Origin: Octopus sinensis
Lineage: Eukaryota
NCBI RefSeq assembly: GCF_006345805.1
Contig: NC_043013.1
Coordinates: 29,078,001 to 29,142,000, forward strand
DNA: 64,000 nt
Reading direction: 5' to 3'
This document shows positions 21,209-60,647 of this stretch, piece after piece. The notes under the pieces were generated by a model, which was not told the DNA's origin, did not search any database, and saw only the letters and a program-made list of their open reading frames with translations. The number at the start of each line of letters is the position of its first letter. The stretch's first letter is position 1. Made by a program: the position numbers and the translations under genes.

Positions 21209-21505
21209 ATAATCAAAATAAGCAACAAGGATATCCAGAGGTAATGCAGTACGATCGTTTCATGCGACTCCATTTAATTAAACAATGCAAGTATTACATC
21301 AGTTTTAAAATGTAGAGCAATACTTGCATTGTTTAATTAAATGGAGTCGCATGAAACGATCGTACTGCATTACCTCTGGATATCCTTGTTGCTTATTTTA
21401 ATTATAATTAACCATTTTGAATTATATGGTTAATGCCATACTAAATTCTGGTGCCTTTAACTTAAGTACCATATTCAACTGAATCTAAATTTTTACTGAA
21501 CTTTT
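21209..21505 (+). mobile_element. Penelope-like 3' end with inverted duplication (81-bp perfect arms)
   Basis: Arms 21215-21295 and 21319-21399; each contains the half-HHR GAAACGATCGTA; flanked by (TA)n. Confidence 0.7.
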
Positions 21506-23573: not shown

Positions 23574-23645
<72 letters not shown>

Positions 23646-23815
23646 TCTTCCTCGTCTAGGCCAAAAAGGCCCTCTTCGTTTGTTTTCTTGTTTGTTTTTA
23701 TTTCTCGTATTGTATTTTTTGTAATTGTATTTTTATTTTGTATTTTATTTTGTAATTATATTTGTATCGTTTTTACGCCCTGTTTGTGTCACATTTTTTT
23801 CTTTCCTTGTTTTTA

Positions 23816-23932
23816 CCCCTCTGCGAAGAATTTTATTTAATTCTTTCGCAGGAAGGGCTAGTTCGACGAGTCGTGTTCTGTCCTCACCTTCGAAACACGC
23901 TGGAGTTGAACTAGGGACAGCTGATGAAGGGG
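23816..23932 (+). ncRNA. Candidate pseudoknotted (strand-permuted) hammerhead ribozyme, copy 1
   Basis: CGUGU-U-CUGUCC (23872-83), CCUUC-GAAA-CACG (23887-99), GGACAG-CUGAUGA-AGGGG (23915-32); helices I and III pair perfectly. Confidence 0.7.
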
Positions 23933-24242
23933 ATTTTTCCTTGTGTAGTTTGTCTTGTACTCTGTTTTTTCGTTGTAAAAAAATGGTCAGTTCCATGCTT
24001 GTTTTTACGTTTTCGTTTCTCGTTGAGTTCTACGTCTATTTGTGGTGTCCTGTACTCACGTATATATATTTATATATGCATGTATGTATACATATATATG
24101 TGTATGCATATATTTATTATTACACTATTGTATGACTGAGCGCCCTCGCGCCGATTCGATTCGTTTCGTTTCGTTTCGTTTCTTCTTCCAAGTCACAGTA
24201 TTATATATATATATATATATATATATGAACCATTCGAAATAT

Positions 24243-34496: not shown

Positions 34497-37400
34497 ATTG
34501 TTGGCATCCTTTTTGTCTCGGGAGACAATGGAGTTGCGCATAAAATAGTCTAGTCCGGCTTTTACATTTCATGTCCTGATGCATTTCCTGCTGTGGCTGT
34601 GTAGTCTTATCCTGGACAAGCACTCCCTCTGGCAGGTACCGCAAATGTAGCGAAGACTGTTCCTGGCTGGTTGTAATGTCATAGTTTCTTGTTGACGTCT
34701 TTTCTTGTCTTTCCATTTCTCCTCTCTTTCTCTCTCTCTCTCTCTCTGTCACTCCTTTGTATTCCCTCTTTTACGGTACGTCGCCAATCTCCACGGTTGC
34801 TGGCAATTGCTTCCCAACCGCTAATATTGATGTTGCAAGCCTTCATGTCCTTTTTGCAAACATCATTGTTACGTAAGAACGGTCTACCCACAGACCTAGT
34901 ACTCCTAGCAAGCTCTCCGTAGAGTATCTCCTTGGGGATTCTGCCATCTTTCATACGGCTAACATGCCCAAGCCATCTCATACGTCTTTGTGTGTGGAGT
35001 GCAAACATGCTTGGTATTCCTGCTTGCTTGAGGACATCTTTGTTGGGGATATGATTCTGCCATTTGATGCGAAGGATTTTTCGGAGGCAGCGCAGGTGAA
35101 AGATGTTTAAGCGACGCTCTTGGCGTGTGCATAGCGTCCAAGTCTCACTTCCATACAGTAGAGTGCTAAGTACACATGCCTGGTAGATCTTAATTTTCGT
35201 GGTCTTGGTCAGCTTATTGTTGTCCCATGCCCGTTTGGAGAGTTGGGCCATCGCAGCAGCTGCCTTGCCAATGCGTATATTGAGCTCAGCGTTAAGGGAT
35301 AGGTTGTAGGTGACGGTAGAGCCAAGATAGGTAAACTTCTCCACCTCCTGTAATCTGTGGTCTCCAATATGTATGTTTGGGATGTCCGATGTAGCCTGAC
35401 CCATGATGTTGGTCTTTTTAAGGCTGATAGCTAAGCCAAAGTCGTTACATGCTTGCTCAAAACAGTTAATGAGCCTTTGGAGGGCTTCTGTGTGTGATAC
35501 CAGAGCGGCATCATCAGCAAATAGCATCTCCTTGATCAGGACGTTTCTGATTTTGGTCTTGGCACGCAGGCGCGAGAGATTGAACAGTTTCCCGTCACTT
35601 CTACTGTGCAGAAACACTCTATCATCTGATGTCTGAAAGGCATGTGAGAGCAAGAGCGAGAAGAAAATGCCAAATAATGTAGGAGCGAGGACACAACCTT
35701 GCTTTACCCCGTTTTTTATTTGGAAGGCGACTGATGTTGAACCATTGTGCTGTATGGTGACTTGCATATCATCATGGAAAGACTTGATGATCCTCAGCAG
35801 CTTTGGTGGACATCCGATTTTTTGGAGCAGGATGAAGAGGCCTTTTCTACTTACCGAGTCAAAGGCCTTTGTTAGATCAATGAAGGCCATATATAATGGC
35901 ATTTTCTGCTCTCTGAACTTCTCCTGAAGTTGGCGTATGGAGAATATCATATCAATAGTTGATCTGCTTCTTCTAAAGCCACACTGCGATTCCGGATAGA
36001 TTCGAGAAGCAAGTAGTTGTAGCCTGGCCAGGATAACGCGAGCAAAGGTCTTTCCAACAGTGCTTAGAAGAGATATTCCACGGAAATTGTTACAATCACC
36101 ACGGTCACCTTTGTTTTTGTAAAGCGTAATGATGTTAGCATCTCGCATATCCTGAGGGACTGTACCCTCTTCCCAGCACTGACACAGAAGCTCATGAAGG
36201 TGCCGAAGCAGGATGGTGTTTTTGCCGGCTTTGGTGATCTCTGAGGGGATGCCGTCTTTTCCCGGAACCTTGTTTCTTGCTAGGGAGTCAATAGCCTTGG
36301 TGAGCTCTGCTATAGATGGCGGACTGTCAAGTTCGCACATGACTGGCAAGATCTTGACACTCTCGATTGCAGCCTCAGCTACTGTAGTATCCCGTGAGTA
36401 GAGATCCTGGTAGTGCTCCACACATCTATCCATTTGCTTGTTTTGATCTCCAGTAGTTGATTTCAGAGGGGCTGACTTGGTTGCGGATGGACCGAGGGCC
36501 TTCTTCAAACCGGCATACATCCCACGGGTGTCGCCCCTGTCAGCAGCCGACTGGATACTCTGACAGATTTCTTGCCAATACCTATTTGCACAGCATCTGG
36601 CTGTCAGTTGGGGTTTTATTTCTTGCCTTTCTGAGTTCTTCGAGTGACTTTGTAGAAGAATCACTCTTGTATTACATCAGAGCTGCACGCTTTGCTTCGA
36701 TAATTGGCTCCAGCTCTGAGAGCCCAGCATTGAACCAATCTGGGTTTTGCCTTTCTCTCATGCCGAAAGTATCAATTGATGTGGTATACAAAGCTTCCCC
36801 GATATAATTCCACCTACTTTCAGCAGAGGAGGTTGGGCAGCTACTGAGGGCAACCTTGATAGAAGCAGCAAAACATTTTCGCAGTGTAGGGTCCGAGGTT
36901 CTGGCAGTGTTAATGCGTGGTCGGCCCACTTTCTTGGAGCGATGGACTTTTTTAGGCAGAATCCTCACCCTACTTCTAATTAGTGAGTGGTCTGTGTCAC
37001 AATCCGCACCGTGGTAACTGCGGGTCAATAGAACAGAATTAAAAAAGGATCTCCGTGTAATGATGAGATTCAGCTGATGCCAGTGGTGAGATCTTGGATG
37101 TCTCCAAGATGCCTTGTGGGATGGCTTGTTGGTAAAGAATGTGTTTGTGACGCACAGGTTATGGTATGTGCAGAATTCGAGTAGTCTCTGACCATTGTCA
37201 TTCATGTTGCCAATACCAAAGTGTCCAACACAAATGGGCCACGAATCATGGTCAGATCCCACGCGAGCGTTAAAATCCCATAGAAGGTAGATATTTTCAG
37301 TTGTTGGTAGAGTTTTTATGACACAGTTGAGATCTTTGTAGAACTGGACCTTGGTCGCCTCTGAGCTGTAGAGAGTGGGAGCATAGATGCTGAGTAGATG

Positions 37401-38352
37401 TACTGAGCCAGAAGAAGTCGAGAGGCGCAGTGAGAAGATACGCTCAGTGCCTCCTGATGGTGGTTCTATTGAGGAGAGTAATGATTTTCTCACTGCAAAG
37501 CCAACGCCATGCTGACGAGGTTCTTCTGGATCGCTTCCCTGCCAAAAGAAGGTGAAATCCTGTTCTTTGAGTTTGCCGTTTGAGGGAAGTCTTGTCTCCT
37601 GTAGCCCAGCAATCTCTATATTAAGCCTCTTTAGTTCACGGTCAATGATGGCCGTTTTCCTTGTGTCTTCAACCCTGAGTAGATCATCAGATATTCCAGG
37701 GCACATGGTCCTGACATTCCAGCTTGTCAACCGCAGGACTGGTGGTTTCTTGTCTTTTAGTTGTTTGCCTGGTGCAGAGGTTGCAGGCCGCTTTTCAAGT
37801 CATACTCTTAGCTCCAAGCACCCAATGAAGCAGGCGGCCTGTAGCGGATCAGCACCTTATTAACTGGGGGCTTCCCAGCTTGAGGTGGGCAGTAGCTAAC
37901 CAATAGGACACGGAGGTCCCTCCCACCGTCAGAGGTAACCCGTAGCGCCCATATTTTACGCTAATCTGAATGGACTAATCACTCGTGACTGTCACCTTCC
38001 GTGTTGTTTCTGCAGCTTTTTACAGCAGCACTGAAGTGTCCTCTCCAGTTTTGCGCAGGTCTGGGTTAGAGATAAGAAAGTCCTGGGTAGCCCAATTGTC
38101 AGGTTTCCTCTCTCGATCTTGCTGATGTAGTCCAAAGGAGTGCAGAGCATTACGTTTGGCACCAGCTTGGTTGCAGGAGCTGCCGGAAGAGTGTCGAGTC
38201 GAACACTAAACCACCTTCGGATTTCTTTGAAGGTTGTCTCCTTTCCGTAACCCTGGATAGGGGCCCATACTGGGGACTGTCAGCCGGAACCAGCTGAGCC
38301 CGGAACTCATGTCAGGCAGGGTCGTCACTCCCTGAAGTAGTGAAGAAGTTCG
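34497..38352 (-). mobile_element. Near-full-length RTE-clade LINE (~3.85 kb) inserted in (TA)n
   Basis: 5' UTR about 37800-38352, then APE endonuclease, RT and zinc finger; 3' stem-loop TTGTCTC-CC-GAGACAA..GGATGCCAA. Confidence 0.93.
34569..37797 (-). pseudogene. RTE APE-endonuclease/reverse-transcriptase ORF with one stop and two frameshifts
   Basis: SWNVRT, LQETR, IYAPT, DFNARVG, DTDHSL; AFIDLTKAFDSV, GVKQGCVLAPTLF, LFADD, FTYLGS. Stop at 36672-74; frameshifts at about 36612 and 34735. Confidence 0.92.
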
Positions 38353-45646: not shown

Positions 45647-45805
45647 GCAACATCGAAAAATACCTTAGAAATGAGAACCCAGGTTCAAAATCTCCCCAAG
45701 ACACCTGATGAAGGCTGGAGGGTGTATCAGCCAAAACGTTGTGTTAGCAACAAACAAGATGAGGACAAATATCCGTCAATTGTAAATAAACTAAATAATG
45801 TATGT
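45507..45805 (+). mobile_element. tRNA-headed SINE with (AAT)n spacer and HHR-bearing tail
   Basis: A box TGGCGTAGTAG, B box AGTTCGATTCC; HHR at 45700-45745. Confidence 0.7.
45700..45745 (+). ncRNA. Minimal type I hammerhead (GAAA mutated to AAAA)
   Basis: ACAC-CUGAUGA-A-GGCUG..CAGCC-AAAA-CG-UU-GUGU. Confidence 0.7.
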
Positions 45806-59395: not shown

Positions 59396-59622
59396 GTTGA
59401 AGACAAAGTTTGCGTCCTTTTCTTTATTAGCAGCTAATCATGTAACGCTTATTTAAGCATTAATCTTAATCTATCGTGCGATCCGCTCTGTTGTAAGTAT
59501 CCGCACTTAATATGCATATATGGGTACAGGATGTCAACAACAGTAAACAACATGAAATACGAAAACAAATGAGTTAAATACGCAAATAACGAGAGAAAAA
59601 ATGGGACAAGTAATACAAAGAA

Positions 59623-59752
59623 TGACCCTTCATCAGTTGTCGGCTGTCTAGTCTATCTATTCCCTATTTCGAGCAATCAACGACAGTATGAGTCTTCGAA
59701 GACAGTTGCTCTCATAAATACCAAAATAAGATTTGGGATTTATGGAGGGTCA
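59623..59752 (-). ncRNA. Candidate permuted hammerhead, copy 2 (partly eroded)
   Basis: CUCAU-A-CUGUCG..UUGCUC-GAAA-UAGG..AGACAG-C-CGACAA-CUGAUGA-AGGGUCA. Confidence 0.55.
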
Positions 59753-59978
59753 AAGTTAGGAACAAAAACAGGACAGTGGAGACATACAGGGAAAGCAAAC
59801 GAGGGTCGTTACACCTGAGCGAGGGGAAAATAGTGAACGCTGAGAGAAATATTTCTTTTGAAAAGAGTAAAGATAGAAGAGAGAGATAGGAGACATCCAG
59901 TCCTTAGAATGTCCGTGCAGGAAAGAAAGATGGTCACGTGAGGAAAAGAAAGGTGGAGGATGGTCACGTGTGAGCAAC

Positions 59979-60012
<34 letters not shown>

Positions 60013-60410
60013 AAGAGGGAGAGATAGAGATAGACAGAAAACGGTGAAAGGGAGGGGATTAGAGAGGTGGGGGAGAAAACAGTATAGAGTAGAGTCGCAT
60101 CGAAAATATTAAGATAAACTTACTTGGAAATGGATACGTGGCGTTCAATTAAATAAAAATATAAAAAATATATATAATATATATAATGATATAAATAATG
60201 TATATATATATATGCATATGTACATATGTATATGTAGATACTTATATCTTTACGTTTATGCATATACATATGTGGGCACAGGACTTCACGGAACGTAAAC
60301 AACATAAAAAATGCGAAAACATGAGATACGAAATACGAATATATGGAATATGAACTTTTTTGCAACAACGAAAGTAGCAAATGGAAAGCAAGACAAGTAA
60401 CATAACGAAC

Positions 60411-60539
60411 GACCCTTCATCAGTTGTCGGCTGTTTTTCTTATCCGTATTTCGAGCAATTCAACGACAAGATACACCTTCGATAAAACAGTTGCTCCTGC
60501 AAAACAAATTAAATAAAATTTGGGATTTTGCGGAGGGTC
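60411..60539 (-). ncRNA. Candidate permuted hammerhead, copy 3
   Basis: UGUAU-C-UUGUCG..UUGCUC-GAAA-UACG..AAAACAG-C-CGACAA-CUGAUGA-AGGGUC. Confidence 0.7.
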
Positions 60540-60647
60540 AAAATTGGTAACAAAAACAGGATAGTGAAAACAAACAGGAAGGGCTGTTAAGCCTAAACGA
60601 GATGAAGTGGCGAACGCGAAGAACCAAGCTTGGATAAGAGACAGACG

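What the first reader, a model, noticed from the sequence alone, without database searches (positions are those of the whole stretch)
60411..60539. Possible built-in conformational switch on helix II of the permuted hammerhead
SEEN in all three copies: an upstream module A-B-B'-C pairs with both helix II strands. In copy 3, GACCCU pairs with AGGGUC after CUGAUGA, hairpin B is CCGCAAAA/UUUUGCAG, and GAGCAA pairs with UUGCUC before GAAA. In copy 1 the equivalents are CCCCU/AGGGG, CUGCGAAGAA/UUCUUUCGCAG and GAAGG/CCUUC. The two helix II strands can also pair with each other in 4 bp with G-U wobbles after one extra A (GGGU/GCUC; GGGG/CUUC). An extra base after A9 also occurs in other HHRs here (e.g. 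45712). INFERENCE: either a multiway junction replaces helix II, or the 5' module is a conserved inhibitor that toggles cleavage, for example only after processing or circularisation. Predicted cut is AUC after 60470 on the minus strand.
Basis: partly seen in the sequence, partly recalled or inferred. Interest (0 to 1): 0.8.

Follow-up and report, generated by a model that had tools for sequence, protein, structure and literature searches.

The report
Hammerhead ribozyme with split helix II
Thousands of copies of a jumping element in this animal genome carry a self-cutting RNA motif wired in an order we did not find described; the 'switch' is most likely a permanent part of the working ribozyme, not an on/off toggle.

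Summary
The pairings are real, but the switch reading fails. The motif is a non-circularly permuted hammerhead (cut site, GAAA, CUGAnGA; type SGC of Eckert 2023) in a non-autonomous Penelope-like repeat: 7,590 pattern matches (control 1), plus a second superfamily. In that second superfamily, core and upstream module are kept with different letters, yet direct helix II cannot form (at most 1 bp in 21 of 22 copies with up to two extra bases), while C/C' stays 94% paired. Best reading: C/C' IS helix II, supplied from upstream; A/A' clamps the severed CUGAnGA end; hairpin B is optional (absent in 4 copies); D/D' sits where the SGC 'interaction stem' sits. This breaks a block Eckert assumed indivisible, so it lies outside their six permutations. 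5'-truncated copies pile up just 3' of the predicted cut (1.2-1.5 versus 0.3 %/nt), suggesting cleavage in vivo. No cleavage assay or RNA evidence exists; folding in one molecule versus two copies is open.

The parts
60534..60539 (-). Strand A (copy 3): clamp that pairs with A' right after CUGAUGA
60497..60533 (-). Hairpin B: inserted arm of the junction; absent in 4 superfamily-2 copies
60491..60496 (-). Strand C = proposed 5' strand of helix II (its first G pairs C11.1)
60481..60490 (-). Strand D, follows helix II strand; pairs D' (SGC interaction-stem position)
60470..60475 (-). Helix III 3' strand and AUC triplet; predicted cut after 60470
   Evidence: cut position inferred by analogy, supported
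60464..60469 (-). Helix I 5' strand, joined by a 5-nt linker to C'
60453..60458 (-). Strand C' = helix II 3' strand, ends in C11.1
60445..60452 (-). GAAA core and helix III 5' strand
60431..60437 (-). Strand D'
60417..60429 (-). Helix I 3' strand and CUGAUGA core
60411..60416 (-). Strand A' (includes the 'extra' A after A9, which pairs the last U of A)
59624..59751 (-). Copy 2 of the motif, different subfamily, decayed; 787 nt downstream of copy 3
59505..60645 (-). Approximate extent of the partial tandem repeat holding copies 3 and 2
   Evidence: ends approximate
23816..23932 (+). Copy 1 of the motif, young subfamily; predicted cut after 23877 (GUU)
23642..24200 (+). Approximate extent of the 5'-truncated element holding copy 1, between (TA)n tracts

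Best explanation
The A-B-C module is the missing half of the active ribozyme, not a switch. Strand C supplies positions 10.1-10.5 of helix II from upstream. The backbone is broken at the A9/10.1 step, where Penelope hammerheads tolerate an extra base; helix A clamps the free CUGAnGA end to the strand running into C, with hairpin B as an optional third arm. D/D' ties the far ends of helices I and II together as in type-SGC ribozymes. The RNA folds in one molecule and cuts tandem transcripts of a non-autonomous Penelope-like repeat into unit-length RNAs; the two products stay held by A, II, D and III, which may favour re-joining or circles. Shown: sequence, pairings, covariation, loss of direct helix II, breakpoint pile-up. 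Inferred: that this fold is the catalytic one, cleavage itself, folding in cis, and the role in transposition. Probability that C/C' is helix II, cis or trans, about 0.75; that it is also cis, 0.5.
For: C/C' 100% paired in 26 of 26 superfamily-1 copies with 3 double changes and 94% in 21 superfamily-2 copies with other letters; five letter versions seen, all starting G-C when intact. Direct helix II: C11.1 unpaired in 21 of 21 with one extra base, 27% paired with two. A/A' kept with unrelated sequence, -8.0 to -22.3 kcal/mol in 20 of 20. D/D' beats shuffles by over 2 sd in 11 of 14 consensuses, whereas D' with the sequence after A' exceeds 1 sd in 2 of 14; so the interaction stem follows C, as it follows the helix II 5' strand in SGC (PMC10085705). 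Two of the main C/C' versions equal the two commonest helix II sequences of canonical Penelope-type hammerheads in the fetched loci (6 and 3 copies). Breakpoints: 21 of 81 in 0..+24 versus 12 in -100..-1 (p 9e-6; 4e-5 after dropping inverted and tandem twins), best change point -1, replicated in a second subfamily (10 versus 2 of 30).
Against: No cleavage assay; no run on record as RNA. Nested folding gives C/C' probability 0.00 in 8 of 13 consensuses, as expected for a pseudoknot but no support. Eckert state that known alignments have no insertion over 1-2 nt beside CUGAnGA. The all-helices cis fold is tight: in subfamily E2 reach 35 A versus about 47 A needed unless 2 bp of helix III open (rough budget). 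The III-D loop looks like a rigid bulged-G motif (name recalled). Double changes in C/C' come from few lineage events. Copies were chosen for having the module; representatives were mostly those closest to consensus. 49 of 81 copies run past the cut.
Confidence: 0.5

Rival explanations
1. Same pairings, but completed between two copies. A lone copy folds into an inactive three-way junction (A, B, and a D-III rod); the loop of one copy docks helices I and II onto the junction strands of another. Cutting then needs a tandem or a dimer, so unit-length or circular RNA is spared. This is a switch, but by copy number, not by helix II.
For: A+B+rod is the predicted fold of copy 1 and the rod dominates in 4 of 13 consensuses; bulges between III and D lie on either strand, or on one strand only; cis budget fails for intact E2; tandems of 565-1473 nt spacing occur; metazoan Penelope hammerheads are proposed to work as dimers (PMC4209133).
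Against: No common 'off' fold: other consensuses prefer helix I instead. Type-SGC constructs with similar short links cleaved during transcription, though monomer versus dimer was not addressed in the parts read. Cis is feasible with slight fraying.
Confidence: 0.25
2. One-base branch migration: C11.1 pairs the first G of A' as a lone G10.1-C11.1 pair on top of a multiway junction of A, B and shortened C (the literal 'junction replaces helix II').
For: A G follows A9 after one base (superfamily 1) or two bases (19 of 21); first four A/A' pairs never covary.
Against: That G is also the first base of helix A; the swap trades two stacked G-C pairs for a lone pair (inference). Covariation cannot separate the two since both G are invariant.
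Confidence: 0.1
3. One reading: direct helix II is the active state and the module is an inhibitor released by processing, circularisation or protein.
For: Direct 4-bp pairing possible in 24 of 26 superfamily-1 copies; 4-bp pairing with 5-6 looped-out bases in 13 of 22 superfamily-2 copies; a Penelope hammerhead needed its protein to cleave (PMC11167929).
Against: At most 1 bp at any offset 0-7 in 9 of 22 superfamily-2 copies; sliding the partner by 3 pairs better than the true register (88.5% versus 79.2%); 16-20 kcal/mol deficit; module is transcribed first and no alternative partner for A or C was seen.
Confidence: 0.07
4. The fold is conserved for recognition by the Penelope protein and no longer cuts; the breakpoint pile-up comes from reverse transcriptase stalling at structure.
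For: No RNA evidence; in Anolis the ribozyme was not needed for insertion in vitro and no read ends were found at the cut; pile-up is spread over 25 nt.
Against: Core, NUH with H never G in 13 of 13 consensuses and all helices are kept across two superfamilies (core letters were partly demanded by the search patterns); truncation rate is at background where the enzyme first meets structure (+25..+58, 0.38 %/nt) and at hairpin B, and drops at the cut.
Confidence: 0.08

Closest known systems
Type-SGC hammerhead (HRIMA-1; Eckert et al. 2023, PMC10085705; read parts 3-5 of 8, passages, oligo-table rows of the supplement; figures not seen)
   Same: Order cut site, GAAA, CUGAnGA; short link from helix I to helix II (3-6 nt here, typically 3 there); a fourth stem joining the other strands of I and II.
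   Different: There CUGAnGA runs straight into helix II and the block is assumed indivisible; here the helix II strand lies upstream of the cut site and is held by helix A. SGC was found in no genome of a known organism; here thousands of copies sit in an animal retroelement.
Minimal type I hammerheads of Penelope-like elements (Cervera and De la Pena 2014, PMC4209133; parts 1-2 of 4)
   Same: Host element class (inferred), extra base after A9, G10.1-C11.1, many subfamilies per genome; shared helix II letters with two such families here.
   Different: Those are C-G-S with hairpin helix II and a palindromic, near-absent helix III; this motif has a full helix III, two extra helices and pseudoknots.
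Non-LTR retrozymes (PMC7229834 passages; bioRxiv 10.64898/2026.07.22.740005 part 1 of 5 and a word search)
   Same: Non-coding tandem units with one hammerhead each, probable dependence on Penelope enzymes.
   Different: Units 737-833 nt rather than 170-400 nt; type I there; circles not shown here.
Engineered maxizyme and TRAP hammerheads (PMC9576606 passages)
   Same: A further strand pairing next to the core decides whether the active fold forms.
   Different: Artificial; here natural, with the helper strand in the same transcript.

Membership tests
Hammerhead ribozyme | CUGAnGA, GAAA and NUH core | tested here: met
   CUGAnGA and GAAA were demanded by most search patterns, NUH was not
Hammerhead ribozyme | Helices I and III around the core with covariation | tested here: met
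   (I 5 of 6, III 4 of 5 pairs with double changes)
Hammerhead ribozyme | Helix II starting G10.1-C11.1 | tested here: inconclusive
   met if C/C' is helix II (26 of 26; 17 of 21); not met in superfamily 2 with the strand after A9
Hammerhead ribozyme | Site-specific self-cleavage | not testable with these tools
   indirect only: breakpoint pile-up
Type-SGC hammerhead | Block order S-G-C | tested here: met
Type-SGC hammerhead | Short link between helix I and helix II strands; interaction stem on the other strands | tested here: met
   (D/D', reading C as helix II strand)
Type-SGC hammerhead | Block C intact (helix II strand within 1-2 nt of CUGAnGA) | tested here: not met
   weak only in superfamily 1
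Penelope minimal type I hammerhead | C-G-S order with palindromic minimal helix III | tested here: not met
Non-autonomous Penelope-like element / retrozyme | Partial tandems, shared 3' end, variable 5' ends, inverted 5' pieces, microsatellite targets, no ORF of its own | tested here: met
Non-autonomous Penelope-like element / retrozyme | Identified autonomous partner sharing the repeat | tested here: inconclusive
   0 of 12 long loci had the motif as part of a long RT/GIY-YIG ORF unit; 3 of 30 GIY-YIG loci had a motif nearby, read as separate insertions; unit BLAST hit only other copies
Non-autonomous Penelope-like element / retrozyme | Expressed linear and circular monomer RNA | not testable with these tools
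   no RNA holder listed; contigs only
Conformational switch (TRAP-like attenuator) | Two mutually exclusive states, both conserved and of comparable stability | tested here: not met

The most novel reading that the evidence does not exclude
A natural hammerhead topology outside the six proposed permutations, with CUGAnGA severed from helix II, that fires only when two tandem copies exchange strands and so counts copies; invisible to standard descriptors, it may also sit in Penelope lineages reported to lack hammerheads (Naiads, bioRxiv 2021.04.23.441226 passages; link not tested). The split topology alone has probability about 0.75.
Probability: 0.2. Interest if true: 0.9.

Novelty: new variant of a known kind. 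Interest (0 to 1): 0.78.

Why it matters
It would be the first non-circularly permuted hammerhead in a cellular genome that our searches found, and the first natural one in which the CUGAnGA block is cut off from helix II, widening the known fold space of the best-studied small ribozyme. Descriptor and Rfam scans miss it, so ribozyme counts in animal genomes and claims that some Penelope clades lack hammerheads may need re-checking. The breakpoint pile-up is a genomic footprint of cleavage in vivo, an open question for Penelope elements. A hammerhead with a helix-sized insertion site at A9/10.1 is also a ready scaffold for sensors. A 130-nt transcript tests all of it.

Tried and rejected
Rfam scan: no hammerhead among the listed rows. 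Canonical C-G-S reading of copy 3: no GAAA downstream of CUGAUGA. 'Perfect four-way junction is required' (my first idea): rejected, superfamily 2 has 2 unpaired bases after A9 in 18 of 20 and B is absent in 4 of 20. Intermediate C' subfamily: 34 matches scattered over subfamilies, read as decay. Variants at A' positions: 33 matches, those parsed show no compensation in A (listing); 540 matches were not checked upstream. Rows fetched as L408-L413, L418, L419 are not the motif (8 of 40). Autonomous partner not found; those elements appear to end in their own canonical variant. No RNA holder listed; laying four runs gave contigs only, no ends. Single-strand folding z-scores -0.5, -2.4, -2.0 do not decide a pseudoknot. 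Literature searches for this topology found only Eckert 2023 for SGC; Lunse 2017 was not held and subscription papers are not covered. Earlier findings: none.

Full report
Setting. The window lies in a 2.72-Gb animal genome, G000; a repeat beside the finding resembles octopus SINEs from memory, untested. The finding is copy 3 of three copies of one motif.

Observation. In 5' to 3' order the motif reads A, B, C, D, helix III 3' strand with NUH, helix I 5' strand, short linker, C', GAAA, helix III 5' strand, D', helix I 3' strand, CUGAnGA, A'. The core order is therefore S-G-C, the non-circular permutation validated by Eckert et al. (PMC10085705; parts 3-5 read), who found none in genomes of known organisms.

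Family. A pattern for GAAA...CUGAWGAAGGG gives 7,590 matches, control 1. Clustering 150 copies chosen for having the module gave 13 clusters of two or more and 25 singletons. On 26 representatives, 94.1% of cells pair and 16 of 25 pairs show double changes. C/C' is 100% paired with three double changes; A/A' changes on both sides only at pair 5 (and 6). The unit is 737-833 nt, in partial tandems with a shared 3' end, variable 5' ends, inverted 5' pieces and (TA)n flanks, the pattern described for Penelope-like elements (passages). No autonomous partner was identified.

Testing the switch in superfamily 1. Direct helix II reads C-G, U.G, U.G or C-G, C-G or G.U and almost never a fifth pair (5 of 150). 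It stays possible in 24 of 26 copies, but sliding the partner by three pairs better, so it is what G-rich against pyrimidine-rich strands give. In a subfamily with 281 exact hits the fourth pair is a C/A mismatch. A plus C out-stack it by 15.7-19.7 kcal/mol in 12 of 13 consensuses; the thirteenth has a decayed first C pair (junction penalties not included). Alone this did not exclude the switch, because A pairs 1-4 are invariant.

Decisive test. Allowing other bases after CUGAnGA gave 5,057 matches, control 397; 81 of the first 100 rows looked by eye like further families. I fetched 40 of those rows, chosen for diversity; 32 were the motif. They keep NUH, helices I and III, D/D' and an upstream C, with different letters: 89.7% of 503 cells pair, C/C' 94.3% (21 copies). 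A/A' is a longer, unrelated helix. Direct helix II fails: with one extra base C11.1 pairs in 0 of 21; with two, only a lone G-C remains in 19 of 21; at most 1 bp in 21 of 22 and 2 bp in one. A 4-bp pairing with 5-6 looped-out bases exists in 13 of 22 but not in the other 9, beyond the 1-2 bases Eckert report. Hairpin B is replaced by 3 nt in 4 of 20 full copies (15 of 35 were set aside as truncated or decayed); repeated skipping by reverse transcriptase could also produce this, so B-less activity is not shown.

Mechanism (inferred). Reading C as the 10.x strand makes the connectivity that of type SGC: helix I links to the helix II 3' strand by 3-6 nt, D follows the helix II 5' strand and D' precedes the helix I 3' strand, which is where Eckert place the interaction stem that was required for cleavage (from text, figures not seen). 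D/D' is conserved, whereas D' has no conserved partner after A'. The motif is thus an SGC ribozyme closed into a circle and reopened at A9/10.1, the step that carries an extra base in Penelope hammerheads (PMC4209133), with helix A holding the ends. Two main C/C' versions match the helix II letters of the two commonest canonical hammerheads in my loci, a hint of origin from them.

Evidence of cutting. Young-subfamily copies were anchored downstream of the motif (197 matches). I measured 73 copies from the first places in genome order; 8 places already held had been skipped, 7 of them full-length, and were added back. Truncation rate is 1.33 %/nt from the predicted cut to +24, 0.27 upstream (p 9e-6) and 0.38 downstream (p 7e-4); after dropping inverted and tandem twins 1.18, 0.25 and 0.33. 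The best change point is -1 and a scan-corrected p is 0.004 (73 copies). A second subfamily gives 10 versus 2 of 30 (upstream p 4e-5, downstream p 0.1). Superfamily 2 gives 7 of 32 by script, one of them an artefact of a distant reference. This fits linear templates starting at the cut; stalling at structure should show earlier and at hairpin B. Yet 49 of 81 copies run through, so uncut or re-joined templates are commoner. In an Anolis element cleavage was protein-assisted and dispensable in vitro (PMC11167929 passages).

Open point. Whether all helices form in one molecule is unsettled. A rough length budget fits most subfamilies but needs fraying in E2 (my assumptions on helix geometry); the III-D loop resembles a bulged-G motif (recalled name) that would make a rod; nested folding often gives that rod. 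Exchange between tandem copies would echo dimeric Penelope hammerheads.

Novelty. Searches returned only Eckert 2023 for SGC and nothing on a split helix II; most subscription papers, the Lunse 2017 text, bioRxiv supplements and the Eckert supplementary alignments were not seen, and the latter could hold similar cases. No S-block matches were found in 167 metagenome and viral hits. Verdict: observation confirmed; toggle unlikely (0.07); split helix II about 0.75; new variant of a known kind; interest 0.78.

Noticed in passing
window 45700-45745 (+): Canonical Penelope-type minimal type I hammerhead with extra A and palindromic helix III; GAAA decayed to AAAA. Its helix II letters equal C/C' of superfamily 2.
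   Followed up: partly
L138, L142, L152, L155, L157 (3' of GIY-YIG ORFs); ORFs in L161-L168, L171, L172: Penelope-like elements with open frames up to about 780-880 aa (RT-like plus C-terminal GIY-YIG) seem to end in a canonical hammerhead variant with a U3-A8 core, seen by eye.
   Followed up: partly
window 59505-60645 (-): Copies 3 and 2 form a tandem of two different subfamilies (77% alike), suggesting insertion of one family into another or template switching.
   Followed up: no
window 60505-60525 (-), loop of hairpin B: A U-rich loop motif is nearly invariant across superfamily-1 subfamilies; role unexplained.
   Followed up: no
L074, L119, L355 (loop between helix III and D): GAA opposite AGUA next to a C-G pair in most superfamily-1 subfamilies resembles the bulged-G (sarcin-ricin) motif (name recalled); other subfamilies replace it with ordinary pairs.
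   Followed up: partly
L087, L118, L310, L357: Fold-back insertions whose turning point lies within the ribozyme, close to the predicted cut.
   Followed up: partly
L121:3613-3789, L300, L401, L402, L407: Near-precise deletions of hairpin B (or B to D), as expected from reverse transcriptase skipping a hairpin.
   Followed up: partly
window 34682-37799 (-): Two adjacent long open frames (375 and 665 aa) that look like a LINE endonuclease and reverse transcriptase (by eye, no family scan).
   Followed up: no
window 21248-21366: Long near-perfect inverted repeat (Rfam MIR5070 match below its cut-off), probably a small DNA transposon.
   Followed up: no
runs X1, X9, X18, X20 on L051:1330-1780: Contigs of four coded organisms lay on the family, so it is not confined to this assembly.
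   Followed up: partly
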